Virus record (IMG/VR): IMGVR_UViG_2695420855_000011 | Location: 1 to 8,050 of that record | Direction: 5' to 3' (one strand) | From: a virus | Lineage: Duplodnaviria; Heunggongvirae; Uroviricota; Caudoviricetes | DNA length: 8,050 nucleotides | In this document: positions 1 through 5,376 of the stretch, in pieces | Layout: the number at the start of each line of letters is the position of its first letter | Numbering within the stretch: the first letter of the stretch is position 1 | Notes under the pieces: generated by a model | What the model was told of the DNA's origin: nothing | The model's database searches: none | Seen by the model: the letters and a program-made list of their open reading frames with translations, nothing else | Made by a program: the position numbers and the translations under genes

Positions 1-239
1 TCAGTTTTTAGCCAGAGCGGTGACGGCATTGTCGAGTTTTTGCCATCCGCAATAGGTGATTGCTCTGAATGCTGTTGCGCCATTCTGGAAAAGGCTAACC
101 GCTCCTGATTCGGTTTTTATTACCGCCTCATCAGTTGGAGTTATAACCGTGGCTTCAACGTTAATAATCAGCTTTTGAGCGTCTATCAGCATCATGCGAT
201 CCGCCTGTTCGCTCACAATTACCGGTATTCTCAAAAGCT
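1..239 (-). pseudogene. 3'-terminal fragment (about 79 codons) of an HK97-fold major-capsid-like gene; exact copy of 4450..4688
   Basis: Bases 1-239 are identical to 4450-4688 and diverge at 240 (a) versus 4689 (c). The minus-strand frame gives the same C-terminal 77 aa as the 308-aa ORF at 4450..5376. No 5' part or start codon; an in-frame TAG (plus 238-240) sits immediately upstream at the point of divergence. Confidence 0.6.
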
Positions 240-349
240 AAGAAAAAAGCCACCCGCATAATTTCAGATATTGACGAAAGCGCATCAGCCGCATCATCAG
301 GAACGCCGGAAAATTCTTGTTTCAGGGAATTAAAACGATCATCACGCAT
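161..349 (-). CDS. Small hypothetical protein; only the first about 36 codons (240..349) are unique sequence, the 3' end reads out of frame through the repeat copy
   Basis: ATG at 349 is preceded by a G-rich SD (minus strand GGGGAGGGGGGG then tt then ATG). The ORF crosses the 239/240 repeat boundary, so its C-terminus is probably non-native. It overlaps the end of the upstream ORF. Confidence 0.3.
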   Translation of the reverse strand: MRDDRFNSLKQEFSGVPDDAADALSSISEIMRVAFFLAFENTGNCERTGGSHDADRRSKADY

Positions 350-567
350 AACCCCCCCTCCCCATTTTCACAATCAGCAACAAGAATATTTTTAGCGTCA
401 TTCAGCGACCGCGTGGCGGTGTATCGGATACATTCCAGGGCGAACAATGTGTATTCTTCCCGTTCTTCCTTTTGTGCAAGCCCTGCTGTGCATTCAATAT
501 CAATAAGCGCATGCATCAGCGTAGTGAGCGCGGCGGCTGCTGCGTCCGGTGTGGTTTTATTGCACAT
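322..567 (-). CDS. Hypothetical 81-aa protein, translationally coupled to the Icd-like gene
   Basis: ATG at 567 is preceded by CAGGAGG with a 6-nt spacer. The start overlaps the stop of the Icd-like ORF (minus strand ...CCATGTGCAATAA). No family recognised. Confidence 0.5.
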   Translation of the reverse strand: MCNKTTPDAAAAALTTLMHALIDIECTAGLAQKEEREEYTLFALECIRYTATRSLNDAKNILVADCENGEGGLCVMIVLIP

Positions 568-1117
568 GGCACACCTCCTGACGAATACGGGCGGCGAATA
601 CAGCAACACAACCGGACGGGCAACGGCTACGTGCTTCGCGTTCCGTCCAGGCGGTTACGTGGATGATTTGATGTTCTGACGCGCCAAAGATGATAAAGCG
701 CCAGAGAAAGGCGGTTTGAGAATGTACAAGGGTAGGGATAGTAGCCATGTTGGCAGCCTCCTCAGTGTGGTTAAGATAACCGCCACCGGAAACGCCAATT
801 TCGCTGGTGGCGGACTGTACAGGGTTGGCGTAACCGGACACTGAAGAAACCGGCGCGGATTGCTCCGCCCCCGTACAGCCCACCATTGATAAGGTGTGAC
901 TATGCGGCACAAAAAAACACGCGGGGCGCGTGTTATGCGCTTCAGTTTTGCCCAGGACGCCAATCCCGGCACCCGTTTTATGAGGTGCGCGGGAATCATA
1001 GCTATTTTCGACACTGGCGATCAACTGGTTTTTTTCTCCGATATTCAGGGCCAGAAAACGCCACACAAAGGCCGTTTGTGTGTGTACAAGGTGTGGTATA
1101 TGATTTACGGCAACCAT
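557..1117 (-). CDS. Tandem (two-domain) Icd-like small protein, 186 aa as one frame; the second domain (557..748) has its own ATG and strong SD
   Basis: ATG at 1117 is preceded by AGGAG with a 5-nt spacer. Two paralogous segments share the pattern hydrophobic-H-x-Q-T-A-F-x-W-R-F (MVAVNHIPHLVHTQTAFVWRF... and MATIPTLVHSQTAFLWRF...). This resembles proteins annotated as host cell division inhibitor Icd-like in enterobacterial prophages, recalled from memory and not verified. There is no stop between the two copies. Confidence 0.45.
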   Translation of the reverse strand: MVAVNHIPHLVHTQTAFVWRFLALNIGEKNQLIASVENSYDSRAPHKTGAGIGVLGKTEAHNTRPACFFVPHSHTLSMVGCTGAEQSAPVSSVSGYANPVQSATSEIGVSGGGYLNHTEEAANMATIPTLVHSQTAFLWRFIIFGASEHQIIHVTAWTEREARSRCPSGCVAVFAARIRQEVCHVQ

Positions 1118-1146
1118 AACGGCTCCTAGTTTACGTTGTTGGTTAG

Positions 1147-1180
1147 ACGCCCCGTATGTGTTCCCAGCACTGCGGGGCGT
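1147..1180. promoter_or_regulatory. Hairpin (8-bp GC-rich stem ACGCCCCG / CGGGGCGT, 18-nt loop) in the leader region of the Icd-like operon
   Basis: Inverted repeat at 1147-1154 and 1173-1180, followed on the plus strand by a T-rich tract 1181-1190. It lies about 30 nt upstream of the Icd-like start on the minus strand. Confidence 0.3.
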
Positions 1181-1205
1181 TGATTTTTGTGTAATGGCAA
1201 GTACA

Positions 1206-1247
1206 ATGGTAATTACCATGTAGGTATAGTAATGAAGGGTAATTACC
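1206..1247. promoter_or_regulatory. Two palindromic operator-like sites sharing the core GGTAATTACC, between the divergent arc-like and icd-like genes
   Basis: A perfect 14-bp palindrome ATGGTAATTACCAT at 1206-1219 and a 10-bp palindrome GGTAATTACC at 1238-1247, the latter directly abutting the ATG of the Arc-like gene. A TATAGT -10-like hexamer lies between them at 1225-1230. Confidence 0.45.
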
Positions 1248-1421
1248 ATGTCAACACCATTAGAAAAACGTTCGCCTCCATACCAAATGCGATTACCGGA
1301 AGACTTCAGAGCGCAGCTAGAAGAAGCAGCTAAGGCCGATGGCGACACATCTTTAGCCACTTGGATTAAACGCGTTCTCCGCAAAGAATTACAGCAACGC
1401 GGCATAGAACCCAAAGGATAA
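1248..1421 (+). CDS. Arc/MetJ-type ribbon-helix-helix DNA-binding protein, 57 aa
   Basis: Own translation: MSTPLEKRSPPYQMRLPEDFRAQLEEAAKADGDTSLATWIKRVLRKELQQRGIEPKG. It shows the RHH pattern (beta-strand YQMRLP, helix A, G-D-T-S turn, helix B). It is below the length cutoff of the supplied ORF track and sits right after the palindromic operators. Confidence 0.75.
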   Translation: MSTPLEKRSPPYQMRLPEDFRAQLEEAAKADGDTSLATWIKRVLRKELQQRGIEPKG

Positions 1422-1478
1422 AAACTATCAGCGCCGTGGTGTGAGGTATTACGGCGCATTGCTATGCAGGACAACACA

Positions 1479-1652
1479 ATGACCGATAAAGAATTGACCA
1501 AAACATTATCACCGGCACGGAAAAGACGGCGCAGAAAGATAGAGCATGAATCAGAAAGATTCGCGCCATGTGCTTTTGCCCTTGAGCAATTCCTTAAAGA
1601 GTACAGGGAAAAGCGCTCATTGCAGGTATGGCAACGAACTGAACCAGACTGA
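1479..1652 (+). CDS. Small basic hypothetical protein, 57 aa, downstream of the Arc-like gene
   Basis: ATG at 1479 with AGGA 7 nt upstream. Sequence MTDKELTKTLSPARKRRRRKIEHESERF... It is followed by an intrinsic terminator. No family recognised; the alternative start at 1464 has a poorly spaced SD. Confidence 0.35.
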   Translation: MTDKELTKTLSPARKRRRRKIEHESERFAPCAFALEQFLKEYREKRSLQVWQRTEPD

Positions 1653-1747
1653 TTGCATTGCCCACCAGCCTGATAGCGGCTATCATCCCCGTGCTTATGT
1701 TTGGGATCACATACACATAAGGCGCAGCGGGTTAATTGTTCAGAAAG

Positions 1748-1774
1748 GCGGCTCCATATCGGGGCCGCTTTTTT
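1748..1774 (+). terminator. Rho-independent terminator for the arc-like operon, possibly bidirectional with alpA
   Basis: Stem GCGGCTCC / GGGGCCGC (8 bp with one G-U pair), 5-nt loop, then TTTTTT at 1769-1774. It sits between the convergent ORF ends at 1652 (+) and 1801 (-). Confidence 0.55.
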
Positions 1775-1800
1775 CGTGTTTGTCATATCTGTGATACCCG

Positions 1801-2007
1801 TTAAGCAGCCGTTCCGCGTGCTTCCTCTTCGCGTTCTTTCTGCCAGGACAACACATCATCCTCATACCATCCGCGACGGCGTAAACCAACGCGAAAACCC
1901 TGCGGAAATTCTCCGGCGTTGATCATGCTTTGCAGCGTGCTGTCTGCCTTGATGTGGATAATTTTTTTTACTTCCTGGCGAAAGATAATTTTTCTGATTG
2001 CTTCCAT
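1801..2007 (-). CDS. alpA: AlpA-family phage transcriptional regulator / excisionase-like protein, 68 aa
   Basis: Sequence ...IIFRQEVKKIIHIKADSTLQSMINAGEFPQGFRVGLRRRGWYEDDVLSWQ... fits the AlpA/Vis signature (S-T-L/I ... AGEFP ... G ... GW ... W). Located downstream of the integrase, as in CP4-57-like islands. Confidence 0.8.
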   Translation of the reverse strand: MEAIRKIIFRQEVKKIIHIKADSTLQSMINAGEFPQGFRVGLRRRGWYEDDVLSWQKEREEEARGTAA

Positions 2008-2025
2008 CGTGATTTACCTTGTGAA

Positions 2026-2042
2026 TCCGGTGTATTCCGGTG
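2026..2042. promoter_or_regulatory. Two TCCGGTG repeats phased 10 bp apart in the alpA upstream region
   Basis: TCCGGTG at 2026-2032 and 2036-2042, about 20-35 bp upstream of the alpA start on the minus strand. The same heptamer recurs upstream of int. Confidence 0.35.
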
Positions 2043-2084
2043 ACAAATACGGTAAATCATCGGATATGGGTAAAAACAGTTCCC

Positions 2085-2114
2085 ACCGTTTTTAAACGGT
2101 ATACACCGTTTTTT
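2085..2114. promoter_or_regulatory. Palindrome ACCGTTT-TT-AAACGGT plus an adjacent ACCGTTTTTT copy
   Basis: Inverted repeat arms 2085-2091 and 2094-2100, with another ACCGTTTTTT at 2105-2114, between the minus-strand terminator and the alpA start. Confidence 0.3.
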
Positions 2115-2140
2115 ATATTGATGATTTGAAATGGAATTAT

Positions 2141-2165
2141 AAAAAAAGCGGCATTTCTGCCGCTT
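2141..2165 (-). terminator. Rho-independent terminator after the int / small-ORF transcription unit
   Basis: Stem AGCGGCA / TGCCGCT (7 bp) with a 4-nt loop, preceded on the plus strand by AAAAAAA (a U-tract on the minus strand). It lies 10 bp past the stop of the 83-aa ORF. Confidence 0.6.
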
Positions 2166-2174
2166 CCAGGATTG

Positions 2175-2426
2175 TTACCGCCATTTTTTGGGCCTGCCTC
2201 CGATCTTCATAGATGCCGGACGTACGACCTTATCAATACTTACCGCCAGATTTCTGGAAGCGCCACGGGATACCAGAAAATCTACTACCTGTTTTTTTGA
2301 TGGGGCCGTCGTTCTGTCCTCCGGATCGTAGGTTGACCAAAATTCATGCTGAACCATCAGGGCCAGTTGCAGCCCGTCGCAATTGCATCTGATATTTTTT
2401 TGCATCTTAACGGTTTCATGTTTCAC
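2175..2426 (-). CDS. Hypothetical 83-aa protein between int and alpA; weak start signals
   Basis: ORF on the same strand as int with a GTG at 2426 and the first ATG at 2405, neither with a good SD. Supported mainly by position and the downstream terminator. Confidence 0.3.
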   Translation of the reverse strand: MKHETVKMQKNIRCNCDGLQLALMVQHEFWSTYDPEDRTTAPSKKQVVDFLVSRGASRNLAVSIDKVVRPASMKIGGRPKKWR

Positions 2427-2503
2427 GGCCTTGTCGTTAAATTTGATGCAATTATACGACGGTTTTACATGGTTTTCGTAGTTTTTACTGGTTTTCTGTA
2501 CAG

Positions 2504-3745
2504 CTACACGGCTCGGATACCCCTTTTACCACTGGCGAGGGTTACGCCCGTCGCCGCAGCCTCGACAAATTCGCCCCACCAGCGCATCAGCACGATGCGT
2601 TTTTCTATGTAGTTGCTCCGGTTGTATGCCCGTCTAACTTCGTTGGTGTCGACGTGGGCAAGTGCCGCCTCTATTACGTCCGGCTCGAATCCTTCCTCGT
2701 TCGCTGCTGTGCTGAATATGGCGCGTAATCCATGAGACACCAGCACGCCAGCGAATCCCATACGCCGCAATGCTGCGTTAGCTGTCTGGCTGTTCATCGG
2801 CTGCTGTGGGTCTTTCAGACTTGGGAAAACGTAATTGCGGTGGTGGCTGATTGGTTTCATGGCCTCCAGCACCGCCATAGCCTGACCGGAAAGCGGGATA
2901 ACGTGATCCCTGCGCATCTTCATGCGTCCGGCAGGTATCGTCCATTGCTTCGCGTCCAGGTTGATTTCATCCCACCGCGTTGATGACGCTTCGGCGGGAC
3001 GGGTTACGGTCAGTAACTGCCATTCAATCAGTAATCTGGTCTGCCGTTCTGTTGCCGATACTGATAAAGCCTGCATAAGCTCGGGCAGCTGTTCGGGGCG
3101 GATTGTTGGCATATGTTTTTTTACAGGTGAGGGAAACGCCTTACGCACATTCATAGCCGGATTGGCATCAATCAGCCCACTGTTGGCGGCGTAATCCATT
3201 ACCTCATTAACGCGCTGTAAAACCCGCTTGAGTGTTTCCAGGTTGCCGCGCTCCTTGATGGGGGTAAGCACTTCAACGAACCTTCGGGCGGTGAGGGTAT
3301 CTATTGGCGTGTTGCCGATGAACGGGAATACATATTTATCCAGCGAACGCCAGATGTCTTTAATCGTGTTGGGGGCCAGATTCTGGCTGATTTTCACCTG
3401 GTACCATGCCGCCGCCACATTTTCGAACGTGTTCCCTTGTCTTCGGGCCTCTGTCTCTCTTTTTTGCCTCTCGTGGTCCTGCGGGTCAGTTCCGGCACTG
3501 ATTAACGTCCTGTACTCGCTACGGCGTTTTCTGGCATCAGCCAGGGAAACATCTTCAAGCGATCCAAAACTCAGCAATATTCTTTTTTTGTCCGATGGTC
3601 GGTAGTAGGAAAATCTCCAGAGTTTTGATCCAGACGGTTTGACCAGGAGAAAAAGCCCTCCGCCGTCCTGCAGGGTGTACTCCTTTTGCGCTGGTCTGGC
3701 TGCTTTGATCTGCACTGTGGTTAATGGGTGTGTTTTTCTCGCCAT
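2504..3745 (-). CDS. int: P4-like tyrosine integrase (site-specific recombinase), 413 aa
   Basis: N-terminus MARKTHPLTTVQIKAARPAQKEYTLQDGGGLFLLVKPSGSKLWRFSYY... is typical of P4 / CP4-57 IntA-type arm-binding domains. The C-terminal part has H-x-x-R (SHGLRAIF) and the tyrosine motif (RRAYNRSNY). The ORF track starts at an upstream GTG (3763); the ATG at 3745 matching the family N-terminus is preferred. Confidence 0.9.
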   Translation of the reverse strand: MARKTHPLTTVQIKAARPAQKEYTLQDGGGLFLLVKPSGSKLWRFSYYRPSDKKRILLSFGSLEDVSLADARKRRSEYRTLISAGTDPQDHERQKRETEARRQGNTFENVAAAWYQVKISQNLAPNTIKDIWRSLDKYVFPFIGNTPIDTLTARRFVEVLTPIKERGNLETLKRVLQRVNEVMDYAANSGLIDANPAMNVRKAFPSPVKKHMPTIRPEQLPELMQALSVSATERQTRLLIEWQLLTVTRPAEASSTRWDEINLDAKQWTIPAGRMKMRRDHVIPLSGQAMAVLEAMKPISHHRNYVFPSLKDPQQPMNSQTANAALRRMGFAGVLVSHGLRAIFSTAANEEGFEPDVIEAALAHVDTNEVRRAYNRSNYIEKRIVLMRWWGEFVEAAATGVTLASGKRGIRAV

Positions 3746-3778
3746 ATGTCTATGATTCCACACGAAAAAACAGGGTTT

Positions 3779-3830
3779 TAGTTATACGGCTTTAGTTATA
3801 CGCCAGCCCGTATAACTAAACGTATAACTA
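3779..3830. repeat. Four copies of a 10-bp motif (TAGTTATACG twice direct, CGTATAACTA twice inverted) in the int leader
   Basis: Copies at 3779-3788, 3793-3802, 3809-3818 and 3821-3830, symmetric about position 3805. Located between the candidate int promoter and the int ATG. Confidence 0.45.
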
Positions 3831-3835
3831 AAAAA

Positions 3836-3876
3836 TCCGGCTGATAGCTTATAAATCCGGTGATGTTCGGTGACTA
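3836..3876 (-). promoter_or_regulatory. Candidate int promoter overlapped by phased (T)CCGGTG repeats
   Basis: On the minus strand, a -35-like TAGTCA (plus 3871-3876), a 17-bp spacer and a -10-like TATAAG (plus 3848-3853). TCCGGCT / TCCGGTG / TTCGGTG sit at 3836, 3856 and 3866, spaced 20 and 10 bp. Confidence 0.35.
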
Positions 3877-3884
3877 AAAAACAT

Positions 3885-3917
3885 AAAAAAACCCGCCAAT
3901 CAAGTGATTAGCGGGTT
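3885..3917 (-). terminator. Rho-independent terminator insulating int from upstream minus-strand transcription
   Basis: Stem AACCCGC / GCGGGTT (7 bp) with a 14-nt loop, flanked on the plus strand by AAAAAAA at 3885-3891 (a U-tract on the minus strand). Confidence 0.5.
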
Positions 3918-3929
3918 ATCCCTGTCTTA

Positions 3930-3956
3930 TCCGGTGCTTTCCGGTGATATCCGGTG
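3930..3956. repeat. Three TCCGGTG heptamers at exact 10-bp phasing
   Basis: TCCGGTG at 3930-3936, 3940-3946 and 3950-3956. Confidence 0.5.
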
Positions 3957-4039
3957 GGCGATTTGGTCGGCACGAGAGTATTTTAATTTGGCGTGTAACT
4001 GAGTGATTTTAATAAATATTCTTGATTCAACTTTTAAGC

Positions 4040-4061
4040 CGTATAACCAAACGTATAACTA
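4040..4061. repeat. Two further copies of the CGTATAAC(C/T)A motif
   Basis: CGTATAACCA at 4040-4049 and CGTATAACTA at 4052-4061, in the same orientation as the inverted copies at 3809-3830. Confidence 0.4.
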
Positions 4062-4207
4062 AAAATATTTGCTGTAAAAATGAACAATTCAAACGGTTGT
4101 TGCCCTGGGGGCTTCAATAATTCCACCGGAATTTTTTTCCGGTTAACCTTTAATCATGTTGGTGGGTCATTAAATGCCCCCTTACTCTGGTTTAAATGCC
4201 GTTTTTT

Positions 4208-4252
4208 GTCACGCCGTGTCACTGGTTGTCACTCTCCGTCACGGTATGTCAC
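4208..4252. repeat. Five GTCAC sites at exact 10-bp phasing; candidate integrase arm-type binding array
   Basis: GTCAC at 4208, 4218, 4228, 4238 and 4248 (ttGTCACgcc, gtGTCACtgg, ttGTCACtct, ccGTCACggt, atGTCACtac). The core resembles the GTCACT core of lambda Int arm-type sites. Confidence 0.5.
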
Positions 4253-4407
4253 TACTCGTTAACACCGTAACCGCTCCGGCTTCTTCCAGTGGTATGTAAT
4301 TTTTTCTTTCTCCCTATACAGTTCAACGCGGCGGATTAATCCCAGTATTTCGGCTTCTGTCATTTATCCACCTGGTCAGCTATTAAACTGCGAAAATTTC
4401 GTAATTG

Positions 4408-4435
4408 TCCCGATATGGGGATCACCATATCGGGA
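4408..4435. other. Perfect 11-bp inverted repeat (TCCCGATATGG ... CCATATCGGGA) with a 6-bp spacer, just 3' of the capsid-like gene
   Basis: Arms at 4408-4418 and 4425-4435. There is no adjacent U-tract on the minus strand, so it is not a canonical intrinsic terminator. Confidence 0.35.
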
Positions 4436-4449
4436 TTGATGCCGTTAAA

Positions 4450-5376
4450 TCAGTTTTTAGCCAGAGCGGTGACGGCATTGTCGAGTTTTTGCCATCCGCA
4501 ATAGGTGATTGCTCTGAATGCTGTTGCGCCATTCTGGAAAAGGCTAACCGCTCCTGATTCGGTTTTTATTACCGCCTCATCAGTTGGAGTTATAACCGTG
4601 GCTTCAACGTTAATAATCAGCTTTTGAGCGTCTATCAGCATCATGCGATCCGCCTGTTCGCTCACAATTACCGGTATTCTCAAAAGCTCTATCTGCCAGA
4701 ACTCAGCATTAGTAAGCTGTAAGGCGTTTTCTACGGGCAAGATTAGCGACGACGTGGCAAGCGTGTTACCGTTCGCTATGTGCTTTTTGAAAAGCTCTAT
4801 GAAGTTTTCGGCCTCATCAGCACCATTAAGCACGCCCTCAGGGGATACGCCCGCCAACTCCTGGTCACTGGAAAGAAATTTTTTATCTATTTCTTTCACC
4901 GATTCCGATGTGATCAAGTCTCTGATCGCTGAATTGGTACCAGGGGTGCTAAATTTGATTAGCTCGTTATTCAGCATCACAATAGCGCCGAGTTTGTACA
5001 GTTTTAGCGAGCTTTCGCTTACTTCTCCCCCTTTTACTGGGATTTCTTCGGCCTCTTTAAGCCATTTACTCCCCTTGCCTGATATTGATTGCAATTTTGC
5101 GCCAAAGGGAAGATTAAGCGCACTACTGATTAACTTGCCAGGTACAGACTGCGAAAAAATATACCCGCCCAGCTCTCTTGCTATCGGCTCAGCCACCAGC
5201 GACGGAAGGTTATCCGTGTTCATTCCTGCTACTACGGATTTTTCAAGGAATAACGAGACAGCCGGATCATTTCTTTTCGTCATCTCTATAGCGTCAGCAT
5301 GGCTAAATTTACACGATGCCAGCACGCTGGCGGCGCGAACTGCTGACACGCCTTTCATGTTTTTACAGATCATCAT
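4450..5376 (-). CDS. HK97-fold major capsid protein-like, 308 aa
   Basis: C-terminal half (...GVLNGADEAENF...LILPVENALQL...LRIPVIVSEQADRMMLIDAQKLIINVEATVIT...SLFQNGATAFRAITYCGW) follows the conserved pattern of HK97-type capsid proteins, by recall not by search. Strong SD (AGGAGGAGGAAG) before ATGATG; translationally coupled to the upstream small ORF. Confidence 0.55.
   Translation of the reverse strand: MMICKNMKGVSAVRAASVLASCKFSHADAIEMTKRNDPAVSLFLEKSVVAGMNTDNLPSLVAEPIARELGGYIFSQSVPGKLISSALNLPFGAKLQSISGKGSKWLKEAEEIPVKGGEVSESSLKLYKLGAIVMLNNELIKFSTPGTNSAIRDLITSESVKEIDKKFLSSDQELAGVSPEGVLNGADEAENFIELFKKHIANGNTLATSSLILPVENALQLTNAEFWQIELLRIPVIVSEQADRMMLIDAQKLIINVEATVITPTDEAVIKTESGAVSLFQNGATAFRAITYCGWQKLDNAVTALAKN

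What the first reader, a model, noticed from the sequence alone, without database searches (positions are those of the whole stretch)
2026..3956. The same TCCGGTG heptamer, 10-bp phased, sits upstream of both int and alpA
TCCGGTG occurs eight times in three clusters: 2026 and 2036 (alpA upstream), 3836/3856/3866 (overlapping the -35/-10 of a candidate int promoter) and 3930/3940/3950 (just beyond the terminator hairpin). The shared motif and phasing suggest a single regulator, plausibly AlpA or Int itself, coordinating int and alpA expression, as described for Vis/AlpA-type proteins in P4-like elements.
Basis: partly seen in the sequence, partly recalled or inferred. Interest (0 to 1): 0.55.

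Follow-up and report, generated by a model that had tools for sequence, protein, structure and literature searches.

The report
Excisionase binding sites in an attachment site
The repeated TCCGGTG motif is real, and it is most likely the docking array for the element's small excisionase/regulator AlpA, placed in the integrase-side arm of the attachment site next to tRNA-Pro and again in front of alpA, the same layout as in satellite phage P4, so it is a well-supported but ordinary member of a known design.

Summary
The motif is real but slightly over-counted. TCCGGTG is exact at 2026, 2036, 3856, 3930, 3940 and 3950. Position 3866 is TTCGGTG and 3836 is TCCGGCT. All lie on one strand and are 10-bp phased. 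Phased pairs occur nowhere else in the window or in a 20-kb homologous locus.

Window 3746-4065 is an attachment site of a roughly 8.5-kb P4/PICI-like satellite that integrates at tRNA-Pro (proL). The 3930-3956 triplet ends 7 nt from the tRNA 3' end.

Two repeat classes are present. The 12-mers CGTATAACTAAA sit on both arms, laid out like P4's annotated attP arm repeats. They change sequence in step between the two arms and independently of the heptamers, so they are the Int arm-type sites. The phased heptamers sit only between those sites and the core, bracketing a terminator. This layout and register recur in P4, CP4-57 and other P4-type integrase loci.

Best reading: the heptamers form an array for the AlpA/Vis-type recombination directionality factor, with a two-site autoregulatory operator at alpA. 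Repression of int is plausible but unproven. This is a new member of a known kind. No binding data exist.

The parts
1801..2007 (-). alpA: 68-aa winged-helix protein of the AlpA/Vis excisionase-regulator type
   Evidence: The Pfam AlpA hit is below threshold (17.9 bits against a 21-bit cutoff). RefSeq names it 'AlpA family/HTH regulator'. It is 29% identical to P4 Vis, E 1e-7. The AF2 model has pLDDT 78. Its best full-length PDB match is the GIsul2 excisionase 8c3t (TMq 0.74, TMt 0.87), followed by MerR-type wHTH proteins, Pukovnik Xis and BldC.
2026..2042 (+). Two exact TCCGGTG heptamers 10 bp apart, 18-35 nt upstream of the alpA ATG and just before its Shine-Dalgarno sequence: candidate AlpA autoregulatory operator
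   Evidence: A phased CCGG pair at the same place is conserved in E. coli groups 1 and 2, Pectobacterium, Brenneria and many IMG/VR relatives, although the flanks have diverged. It is absent in group 3 and in CP4-57.
2048..2054 (+). Possible weak third site, TACGGTA, 12 bp from the pair
   Evidence: Sequence only. It is conserved in groups 1 and 2 as TTTACCGTATTT on the sense strand. Its status is uncertain.
2504..3745 (-). int: P4-type tyrosine integrase with an N-terminal arm-DNA-binding domain
   Evidence: Pfam Arm-DNA-bind_3, Phage_int_M and Phage_integrase. NCBIfam PRK09692 at 552 bits. It is 34% identical to P4 Int.
3777..3802 (+). Two TTTAGTTATACG 12-mers (3777-3788 and 3791-3802), inverted relative to the next pair: Int arm-type sites on the P arm
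   Evidence: The layout parallels the annotated P4 'attP arm sequence repeat' features.
3809..3832 (+). Tandem pair of CGTATAACTAAA 12-mers: Int arm-type sites on the P arm
   Evidence: The same 12-mer pair recurs on the far arm, and the two arms change together in other lineages.
3836..3872 (+). Int-proximal heptamer cluster: TCCGGCT (3836), TCCGGTG (3856), TTCGGTG (3866). The CCG/TCG trinucleotides fall at 0, +20 and +30
   Evidence: The same phasing is kept in group 2, where the sites read TCCGGTT, TACCGAT and TCCGGCG.
3848..3876 (-). Hypothetical int promoter: -35 TAGTCA (3876-3871), 17-bp spacer, -10 TATAAG (3853-3848). Heptamers 3856 and 3866 fill the spacer
   Evidence: Read directly from the sequence. 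The consensus scan did not report it. No transcription start data exist.
3890..3917 (-). Intrinsic terminator hairpin followed by a T-run, oriented to stop transcripts leaving tRNA-Pro. It lies between the two heptamer triplets
   Evidence: It is present in all relatives and in CP4-57-type loci, with a compensatory stem change in group 2 (CCCGT...ACGGG). The native proL terminator is displaced to attR in O26.
3930..3956 (+). Core-proximal triplet of exact TCCGGTG at 10-bp spacing, ending 7 nt before the tRNA-Pro 3' end
   Evidence: CG/GG dinucleotides peak at -12, -22 and -32 from the RNA-gene end in 12 lineages, P4 included.
3960..3978 (-). att core, GATTTGGTCGGCACGAGAG. Positions 3964-3978 are the reverse complement of the last 15 nt of tRNA-Pro (CTCTCGTGCCGACCA)
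   Evidence: In E. coli O26 the homologous sequence continues into an annotated tRNA-Pro beside yejM. Homology to attL stops here. Comparing attL with attR in groups 2 and 3 suggests the crossover lies near GATTT.
4040..4063 (+). Tandem pair CGTATAACCAAA + CGTATAACTAAA: Int arm-type sites on the far (P') arm
   Evidence: An equivalent pair sits about 60 bp beyond the core in O26 attR (L001 2564-2587) and, with lineage-specific sequence, in group 2 (L030) and group 3 (L031). The P4 far-arm pair lies 53 bp beyond its core.
4124..4144 (.). CACCGGA and TCCGGTT in inverted orientation (a short palindrome) on the far arm; status uncertain
   Evidence: It lies in a segment with no homology to the O26 attR side, it is not phased, and O26 attR has no heptamer.

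Best explanation
The heptamers are the recognition core of binding sites for the element's AlpA protein, a small winged-helix recombination directionality factor and regulator homologous to P4 Vis.

Shown by sequence and comparison. Window 3746-4065 is an attachment site of a P4/PICI-like satellite that uses the 3' end of tRNA-Pro as its core. On the integrase side the order is: int start, four 12-bp Int arm-type sites, three phased heptamers, an intrinsic terminator, three phased heptamers, then the core. Two more heptamers sit just upstream of the alpA ribosome-binding site.

Inferred. When alpA is switched on (by a helper phage in related PICIs), AlpA monomers bind cooperatively, head to tail, one per helical turn. 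They bend the integrase-side arm so that Int bound at the 12-mers can also reach the core, which allows excision. The cluster at 3836-3872 overlaps the likely int promoter, so the same binding would damp int transcription, as reported for P4 Vis and KplE1 TorI. The pair at 2026-2042 lets AlpA regulate its own gene. The sign of that regulation is unknown. The geometry favours repression, but the one PICI experiment available reports activation.
For: (1) Direct repeats at exactly 10 bp on one strand occur only at these three places. Direct repeats one helical turn apart are the stated hallmark of RDF operators (PMC7498355).

(2) The int-upstream clusters lie inside attL/attP, between the arm-type sites and the core, and the last one ends 7 nt from the tRNA-Pro end.

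(3) A different repeat family, the 12-mers, matches P4's annotated attP arm repeats in number, tandem and inverted arrangement, and distance from the core on both arms. The P and P' copies change together between lineages.

(4) The two classes evolve independently. The 12-mers become GTAGCTA (group 2), GGGACTA (Serratia), GTATACC, GGGCCTA, GGTGCCTA, TATGCCTA or ATGCCCCC (P4) while a phased CGG-type motif persists. Conversely, lineages that keep GTATAAC carry different phased motifs: AACGATG in group 3 and TYGGTGAG in L094/L099.

(5) The register is conserved relative to the RNA-gene end (-12/-22/-32) in 12 lineages that use tRNA-Pro, ssrA, tRNA-Met or tRNA-Leu.

(6) The phased pair before alpA is conserved across genera. 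Group 3 lacks CCGG both in the arm and upstream of alpA.

(7) AlpA has an excisionase-type winged-helix fold and is homologous to Vis.

(8) Literature. P4 Vis binds attP by EMSA and footprinting (PMC2603039), bends att DNA (PMC7498355) and represses Pint (PMC7286903). AlpA is required for excision of CP4So (PMC5148205). In EcCICFT073, AlpA is needed for induction and transfer, its overexpression induces int-dependent excision and replication, and it acts on its own promoter (PMC6092414).
Against: No binding, footprint, transcription-start or mutational data exist for this element, so the assignment to AlpA is by position, pattern and homology only. The motif is degenerate in relatives, so covariation between AlpA residues and site sequence is weak and rests essentially on one contrasting lineage (group 3). 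Group 3 and CP4-57 have no matching pair upstream of alpA, so autoregulation through these sites is not universal. In EcCICFT073, AlpA did not affect Pint (PMC6092414). The CCGG core is palindromic, so site orientation cannot be fixed. The far arm of the window has two unphased copies (4124, 4138) that the model does not explain.
Confidence: 0.65

Rival explanations
1. The heptamers are purely transcriptional operators. A regulator (AlpA or another protein) co-regulates the int and alpA promoters, with no architectural role in recombination.
For: The same motif lies upstream of both genes. Heptamers 3856 and 3866 fill the spacer of a plausible -35/-10 pair. AlpA acts on its own promoter in EcCICFT073.
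Against: The strongest cluster (3930-3956) lies on the far side of a terminator from int, in the tRNA trailer and 7 nt from the tRNA end, where it cannot be a promoter operator for int. Its register is fixed relative to the core, not to int, in 12 lineages. It survives a change of target gene from tRNA-Pro to ssrA.
Confidence: 0.12
2. The heptamers are arm-type sites bound by the N-terminal domain of Int, so Int autoregulates and also represses alpA.
For: Int has an arm-binding domain. P4 Int represses its own promoter.
Against: The 12-mers occupy the positions of P4's annotated arm repeats on both arms and co-vary between arms. In O26 the heptamers are absent from the far arm. The heptamer-type motif persists where the Int N-terminal domain and the 12-mers have changed, as in Serratia L020 and group 2, and it changes where they have not, as in group 3 and L094.
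Confidence: 0.08
3. A different protein binds the heptamers: a host nucleoid protein, a helper-phage factor, or the product of the small ORF between int and alpA (2175-2426).
For: No binding data exist. alpA of PICIs is induced by an unidentified helper factor. orf83 has no family assignment.
Against: The motif does not resemble IHF or Fis sites. The Pectobacterium elements L015/L016 leave only about 0.3 kb between int and alpA, which is too little for an orf83-sized gene, yet they keep the array. The direct-repeat, one-turn pattern is typical of monomeric winged-helix RDFs, and AlpA is the only such protein in the module.
Confidence: 0.1
4. The repeats are non-functional products of local duplication or slippage.
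For: Short tandem units can arise by slippage.
Against: Position, phase and CG core are conserved across genera while the flanks diverge. The array recurs at an unlinked second site (alpA) and in P4 and CP4-57.
Confidence: 0.03

Closest known systems
Satellite phage P4 attP with Vis (excisionase/regulator) and Int
   Same: Both have a P4-type Int (34% identical) and a Vis/AlpA-type small winged-helix protein (29% identical). Both carry 12-bp arm repeats as an inverted copy near the int start, a tandem pair on the int side, and a tandem pair 53-61 bp beyond the core. Between the arm repeats and the core, P4 has 10-bp phased CGGA/YGGA motifs at 3973/3983/3993 and at 4046/4056/4066, in the same register relative to the tRNA end. 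P4 also has CCG-type phased motifs upstream of vis. Vis is reported to bind attP, bend it and repress Pint.
   Different: The target is tRNA-Pro rather than leuX. The arm repeat sequence is GTATAAC rather than ATGCCCCC, and the site core is TCCGGTG rather than CGGA. alpA lies directly downstream of int and in the same direction, which is the PICI layout. The exact Vis footprints could not be read here because Cali 2004 is not held, so the equation of P4's phased motifs with the Vis boxes is my inference.
KplE1 prophage attL with TorI (RDF) and IntS (Panis et al. 2010)
   Same: attL overlaps the integrase promoter, so both Int and the RDF down-regulate int. The authors propose this as general for tRNA-associated integrases (summarised).
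   Different: The proteins and sites are unrelated in sequence, and no autoregulatory RDF operator at the RDF gene is described there. Promoter overlap in the present element is only inferred.
Coliphage 186 Apl and P2 Cox: dual-purpose RDFs
   Same: One small protein binds direct repeats spaced 10-11 bp both at att and at a promoter region. Binding is cooperative and bends DNA, with loose sequence specificity.
   Different: The second set of sites lies at the lytic/lysogenic switch promoters, not in front of the RDF gene. The integrase family differs.
AlpA of Gram-negative PICIs (EcCICFT073) and of CP4-57/CP4So
   Same: The int-alpA module is co-directional. AlpA is required for excision of CP4So, and for induction and transfer of EcCICFT073, where its overexpression also drives excision. 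It acts on its own promoter. The element here has the PICI gene order and carries capsid and small-terminase genes.
   Different: No AlpA binding motif was given in the papers read. AlpA did not affect Pint in EcCICFT073. The AlpA allele here is only distantly related to K-12 AlpA.
Pseudomonas aeruginosa AlpA, a processive antiterminator
   Same: The name only. A terminator is present near the sites.
   Different: PaAlpA is a larger, Q-like eight-helix protein that reads a single GGGACG element between -35 and -10. The protein here is a 68-aa MerR-type winged helix. It is not a member of that family.

Membership tests
RDF (excisionase) binding array in an att arm (lambda Xis / P4 Vis / 186 Apl type) | Several direct repeats spaced about one helical turn apart on one strand | tested here: met
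   Spacing is exactly 10 bp in each cluster and all copies are on the + strand.
RDF (excisionase) binding array in an att arm (lambda Xis / P4 Vis / 186 Apl type) | The array lies within the attachment site, on one arm, between the Int arm-type sites and the core | tested here: met
   The core is the tRNA-Pro 3' end at 3964-3978. The clusters lie between the 12-mers (3777-3832) and the core. The O26 far arm has none.
RDF (excisionase) binding array in an att arm (lambda Xis / P4 Vis / 186 Apl type) | The element encodes a small winged-helix RDF | tested here: met
   AlpA is 68 aa, its model best matches the GIsul2 excisionase 8c3t and MerR-type wHTH proteins, and it is 29% identical to Vis. 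The Pfam AlpA score is below its cutoff.
RDF (excisionase) binding array in an att arm (lambda Xis / P4 Vis / 186 Apl type) | The RDF physically binds and bends these sites and is needed for excision | not testable with these tools
   This needs EMSA or footprinting and excision assays. Only precedents in relatives exist.
Int arm-type binding sites | Copies are present on both arms of attP | tested here: not met
   The O26 attR side has no heptamer. The window's far arm has only two unphased, inverted copies in a non-homologous segment. The 12-mers do meet this feature.
Int arm-type binding sites | The sequence follows changes in the Int N-terminal domain and in the other arm | tested here: not met
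   The heptamer-type motif persists when the 12-mers and the Int N-terminus change (group 2, Serratia L020). It changes when they do not (group 3, L094).
Promoter operators of the P4 Pint / KplE1 PintS type (attL overlapping the int promoter) | The sites overlap the -35/-10 or the start of the int promoter | tested here: inconclusive
   A candidate promoter, TAGTCA-17-TATAAG at 3876-3848, holds two heptamers in its spacer. It was not called by the scan and no transcription start is known.
Promoter operators of the P4 Pint / KplE1 PintS type (attL overlapping the int promoter) | Occupancy changes int or alpA transcription | not testable with these tools
   This needs reporter fusions with and without AlpA.
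Gram-negative PICI / P4-like satellite | int, alpA and a replication gene are co-directional, packaging genes are present, and the element uses a specific att site | tested here: met
   The O26 element reads int-orf-alpA-icd/ash-RepA helicase-TerS-capsid between tRNA-Pro and yejO. Helper dependence was not tested.
P. aeruginosa AlpA antiterminator system | A Q-like protein loading at a single ABE inside a promoter upstream of a terminator | tested here: not met
   The protein here is a 68-aa winged helix, not the eight-helix Q-like fold.

The most novel reading that the evidence does not exclude
The two AlpA triplets bracket the terminator that ends tRNA-Pro transcription, and one triplet lies in the transcribed tRNA trailer. 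AlpA bound there, on DNA or on the nascent RNA (P4 Vis is reported to bind RNA), could decide whether transcription from the strong host tRNA promoter stops or reads through into int. The recombination array would then double as a termination switch that drives int from the host promoter on induction. The fixed -12/-22/-32 register and the terminator placed between the triplets, seen from P4 to CP4-57, would be the signature of that switch.
Probability: 0.07. Interest if true: 0.6.

Novelty: new member of a known kind. Interest (0 to 1): 0.3.

Why it matters
AlpA is the master switch for excision and induction of Gram-negative phage-inducible islands, but none of the papers read here gives its DNA target. 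If AlpA binds these heptamers, the sequence gives a testable recognition motif for one AlpA allele. It would also show that this allele's only phased targets in the element are the attachment site and its own gene. Finally, it provides a simple positional rule for locating RDF sites in the many P4-type integrase islands next to tRNA and tmRNA genes: three sites at -12/-22/-32 from the RNA-gene end, then a terminator, then three more sites, then the arm-type 12-mers. It does not reveal a new kind of mechanism.

Tried and rejected
- **Antitermination by analogy with P. aeruginosa AlpA.** Rejected as a family assignment, because that protein is a Q-like eight-helix factor with a single GGGACG element and the protein here is a 68-aa winged helix.
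- **tRNA in the window.** ARAGORN finds none. Only the last 15 nt of tRNA-Pro are present.
- **Phage database.** There was no nucleotide match for 1700-4450.
- **P4 Vis papers.** Direct reading of the footprint papers failed because they are not held. I rely on secondary descriptions.
- **AlpA family assignment by sequence.** Word-based protein search returned only close AlpA relatives. NCBIfam gave nothing for AlpA or orf83. The PDB sequence search gave only a weak hit to 8c3t, so the fold was checked by model and Foldseek instead.
- **Covariation between AlpA recognition-helix residues and site sequence.** This was too weak to use, because the sites are degenerate and only group 3 is clearly different.
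- **IHF site in the hairpin loop.** AATCAAGTGATTA fits the consensus in group 1, but it is not conserved in other lineages, so it is not claimed.
- **Shared TTACCGTC between arm and alpA upstream in group 3.** Judged compatible with chance.
- **IMG/VR loci for the int-upstream region.** Most begin exactly at the int start codon, so they informed only the alpA-upstream comparison.
Full report
**Observation.** TCCGGTG is exact on the + strand at 2026, 2036, 3856, 3930, 3940 and 3950. Position 3866 reads TTCGGTG and 3836 reads TCCGGCT, so there are six exact copies and two degenerate ones rather than eight. The window holds 10 exact copies against 0.86 expected, and none of 200 shuffles reached 10. 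The four copies outside the clusters (545, 784, 4124, 5789) are unphased. Same-strand pairs with at most one mismatch, 9-11 bp apart, occur only at the three reported clusters. That holds both in the window and in a 20-kb homologous chromosomal locus: 4 pairs observed, against a random mean of 0.07 and a maximum of 2. On the gene-sense strand the unit reads CACCGGAWWW, so the heptamer is the core of a roughly 10-bp unit.

**Context.**
- The - strand carries a P4-type integrase at 3745-2504, with Arm-DNA-bind_3, Phage_int_M and Phage_integrase domains. NCBIfam PRK09692 scores 552 bits.
- Downstream come a small ORF and then alpA (2007-1801).
- Window 240-3986 is 99.3% identical to part of an ~8.5-kb element in E. 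coli O26:H11 11368, which lies between tRNA-Pro/yejM and yejO. Its gene order is int, hypothetical, alpA, icd-like/ash, RepA helicase, TerS, capsid.
- This is the Gram-negative PICI/P4-like satellite layout. It includes a C4-type antisense RNA and isrK downstream of alpA.
- The reverse complement of window 3964-3978 is the last 15 nt of tRNA-Pro, and in O26 the sequence continues into the annotated tRNA.
- To the right of 3978 the window does not continue into the tRNA. It continues into the far-end arm of a related element, so 3746-4065 has the form of an attP or tandem junction.
- That junction is not present in any of the 5,426 complete E. coli genomes searched.

**Two repeat classes in the attachment site.** Reading from int, the site contains:
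- two TTTAGTTATACG 12-mers (3777-3802);
- two CGTATAACTAAA 12-mers in the opposite orientation (3809-3832);
- heptamers at 3836, 3856 and 3866;
- a hairpin with a T-run that terminates transcription coming from the tRNA (3917-3890, - strand);
- heptamers at 3930, 3940 and 3950;
- the core (3960-3978);
- a further tandem 12-mer pair (4040-4063), 61 bp beyond the core.

The GenBank record of phage P4 annotates 'attP arm sequence repeat' 12-mers in the same arrangement. There is one inverted copy at the int start, a tandem pair on the int side, and a tandem pair 53 bp beyond the 20-bp core. The far-arm pair is also present in O26 attR. In two other E. coli lineages it carries the same lineage-specific changes as the int-side pair: group 2 has GTATAGCT/GTGTAGCT on both arms. 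I therefore assign the 12-mers as the Int arm-type sites.

**The two classes evolve independently.** I compared about 20 related loci. They came from E. coli (three groups at tRNA-Pro), E. albertii, Phytobacter, Brenneria, Pectobacterium, Serratia and IMG/VR contigs, plus P4, CP4-57 and other P4-type integrase loci at ssrA or tRNA-Pro.
- The 12-mers change to GTAGCTA, GGGACTA, GTATACC, GGGCCTA, GGTGCCTA, TATGCCTA or ATGCCCCC, while a 10-bp phased CGG-type motif stays in place.
- Conversely, lineages that keep GTATAAC 12-mers carry different phased motifs: AACGATG in E. coli group 3 and TYGGTGAG in the tRNA-Met elements L094/L099.
- Relatives that have switched target from tRNA-Pro to ssrA keep the whole arm, including the triplet next to the new core.
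- Anchored on the RNA-gene 3' end, CG/GG dinucleotides peak at -12/-11, -22/-21 and -32/-31 in 12 lineages using four different target genes, P4 included.
- The terminator between the two triplets is equally conserved, with a compensatory stem change in group 2. Its simplest role is to replace the native proL terminator, which integration moves to attR.

**The alpA-upstream pair.** The two heptamers lie 18-35 nt before the ATG, directly upstream of the Shine-Dalgarno sequence. A phased pair of CCGG sites at the same place is found in E. coli groups 1 and 2, in Pectobacterium and Brenneria, and in many IMG/VR relatives. Examples are CGCCGGAATC/CTCCGGTATT and GCCGGAATAC/GCCGGAGCAG, and the flanks around them have diverged. 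Group 3, whose arm sites lack CCGG, has no CCGG pair upstream of alpA, and neither does CP4-57. P4 has CCG-type motifs 10 bp apart upstream of vis.

**The protein.** AlpA here is 68 aa.
- Its Pfam AlpA score is below the cutoff.
- It is 29% identical to P4 Vis, E 1e-7.
- Its AlphaFold model (pLDDT 78) superposes best over its full length on the GIsul2 excisionase 8c3t (TMq 0.74, TMt 0.87). It also matches MerR-type winged helices, Pukovnik Xis and BldC, a protein that binds direct repeats one turn apart as head-to-tail multimers (PMC11963761).

**What the literature says.**
- RDF operators are direct repeats about one helical turn apart. Binding is cooperative, bends DNA and has loose sequence specificity. 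Apl of phage 186 uses such sites both at att and at promoters (PMC7498355).
- P4 Vis binds attP by EMSA and footprinting (PMC2603039) and represses Pint, as does Int (PMC7286903).
- Overlap of attL with the int promoter, giving repression by both Int and the RDF, is proposed to be general for tRNA-associated integrases (PMC2951348).
- AlpA is required for excision of CP4So (PMC5148205).
- In EcCICFT073, AlpA is needed for induction and transfer, and its overexpression induces int-dependent excision and replication. It activates its own promoter and has no effect on Pint (PMC6092414).

**Mechanism proposed.** The anatomy and its conservation are shown. The following is inferred.
- AlpA binds the phased sites cooperatively and bends the int-side arm, so that Int bridges the 12-mers and the core for excision.
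- The 3836-3872 cluster overlaps a plausible but unverified int promoter: TAGTCA, 17 bp, TATAAG at 3876-3848. The scan did not call it. Binding there could damp int transcription.
- The 2026-2042 pair gives AlpA feedback on its own gene. The sign of that feedback is unknown.

I put this at about 0.65.

**Rivals.**
- Transcription-only operators (0.12). This fails to explain a triplet that lies beyond a terminator from int and is locked to the core.
- Int arm-type sites (0.08). The 12-mers and the independent evolution of the two classes argue against it.
- Another binding protein (0.10).
- Non-functional repeats (0.03).

**Novelty.** This is the P4 Vis/attP design in a tRNA-Pro satellite, so it is a new member of a known kind. 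Two things may be useful and, as far as I could read, are not stated in the papers held here. One is a concrete candidate AlpA motif for a PICI. The other is the family-wide positional rule (-12/-22/-32, terminator, second triplet, arm 12-mers).

**Limits.**
- Everything about binding is inference.
- The original Vis footprint papers could not be read, so equating P4's phased CGGA motifs with the Vis boxes is my inference.
- Site orientation is ambiguous because CCGG is palindromic.

Noticed in passing
window 1-239 / 4450-4688; 3322-3745 / 7627-8050; junctions at 239/240, 3978/3979 and 7626/7627: The window is a mosaic. Two stretches are duplicated exactly. A capsid C-terminal fragment is fused to the icd-like region at 239/240. 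A RepA C-terminal fragment is fused to the int N-terminal part at 7626/7627, with at most about 8 nt of offset microhomology (ACGGGAAT). Segments 240-3986 and 7627-8050 are 99-100% identical to O26, while 1-239 and 4382-7626 are 95-97% identical. The 7627 junction and the attP-like junction are absent from 5,426 complete E. coli genomes; the 239/240 junction was not searched. The window could be a tandem pair of deleted elements, a concatemer or an assembly chimera.
   Followed up: partly
window 803-890 (-) and 912-988 (-): Rfam finds a C4 antisense RNA (77.6 bits) and isrK (66 bits) downstream of alpA. This is the P4/P1-type RNA immunity region of the satellite. An unphased TCCGGTG (784-790, - strand) lies 13 nt past the C4 RNA 3' end.
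   Followed up: no
window 2074-2113: Two 20-bp direct repeats lie upstream of the alpA heptamer pair. On the alpA-sense strand each reads AAAAACGGTG and carries a near-dyad (AAACGGT..ACCGTTT). They are conserved in E. coli groups 1 and 2. This is a candidate site for whatever switches alpA on. ACGGTG resembles the heptamer in inverted orientation.
   Followed up: partly
window 1205-1251: Two copies of the palindrome GGTAATTACC, 30 bp apart, lie just upstream of a + strand ORF (1248-1421). That ORF is annotated as YlcI/YnfO family in related loci. This looks like an operator of a divergent small regulator.
   Followed up: no
window 5788-5869 and 6045-6071: Clusters of GTAAC(T)TTT repeats, direct and inverted, lie inside and just upstream of the small-terminase gene (D3, I1-I3, I8). 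They are a possible packaging (pac) or TerS recognition region.
   Followed up: no
window 6878-7090: TTTTACTCCCCACTTTTT-type repeats occur three times at 83-85-bp spacing, with shorter CCCCACT copies, between the RepA fragment and the next ORF (D4, D5). They look like iterons and may mark a replication origin.
   Followed up: no
window 3898-3910: The loop of the terminator hairpin reads AATCAAGTGATTA, which fits the IHF consensus WATCAANNNNTTR as I recall it. It is kept approximately in group 2 but not in other lineages.
   Followed up: partly
L016, L090, L091 (ssrA); L094, L099 (tRNA-Met): Close relatives of this integrase (52-73% identity), with the same GTATAAC arm 12-mers, are integrated at ssrA or tRNA-Met instead of tRNA-Pro. 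Only the core is replaced and the arm architecture is kept.
   Followed up: partly
L001 2480-2503; L030 4495-4513; L031 10069-10087: The attR copies of the core are imperfect: TTTTTGGCACGAGAG in O26 and TTTTTGGTCCACGAGAG in groups 2 and 3, against GATTTGGTCGGCACGAGAG at attL. This suggests a crossover near GATTT, just past the tRNA end, and an imperfect tRNA copy in attP.
   Followed up: partly
window 4066-4090; L001 2589-2615; L030 4602-4628; L031 10174-10200: A conserved block, TTTGCTG-N-AAAAA-(G/A)T-(G/A)TACA, lies immediately after the far-arm 12-mer pair in all four lineages. Its function is unknown.
   Followed up: no
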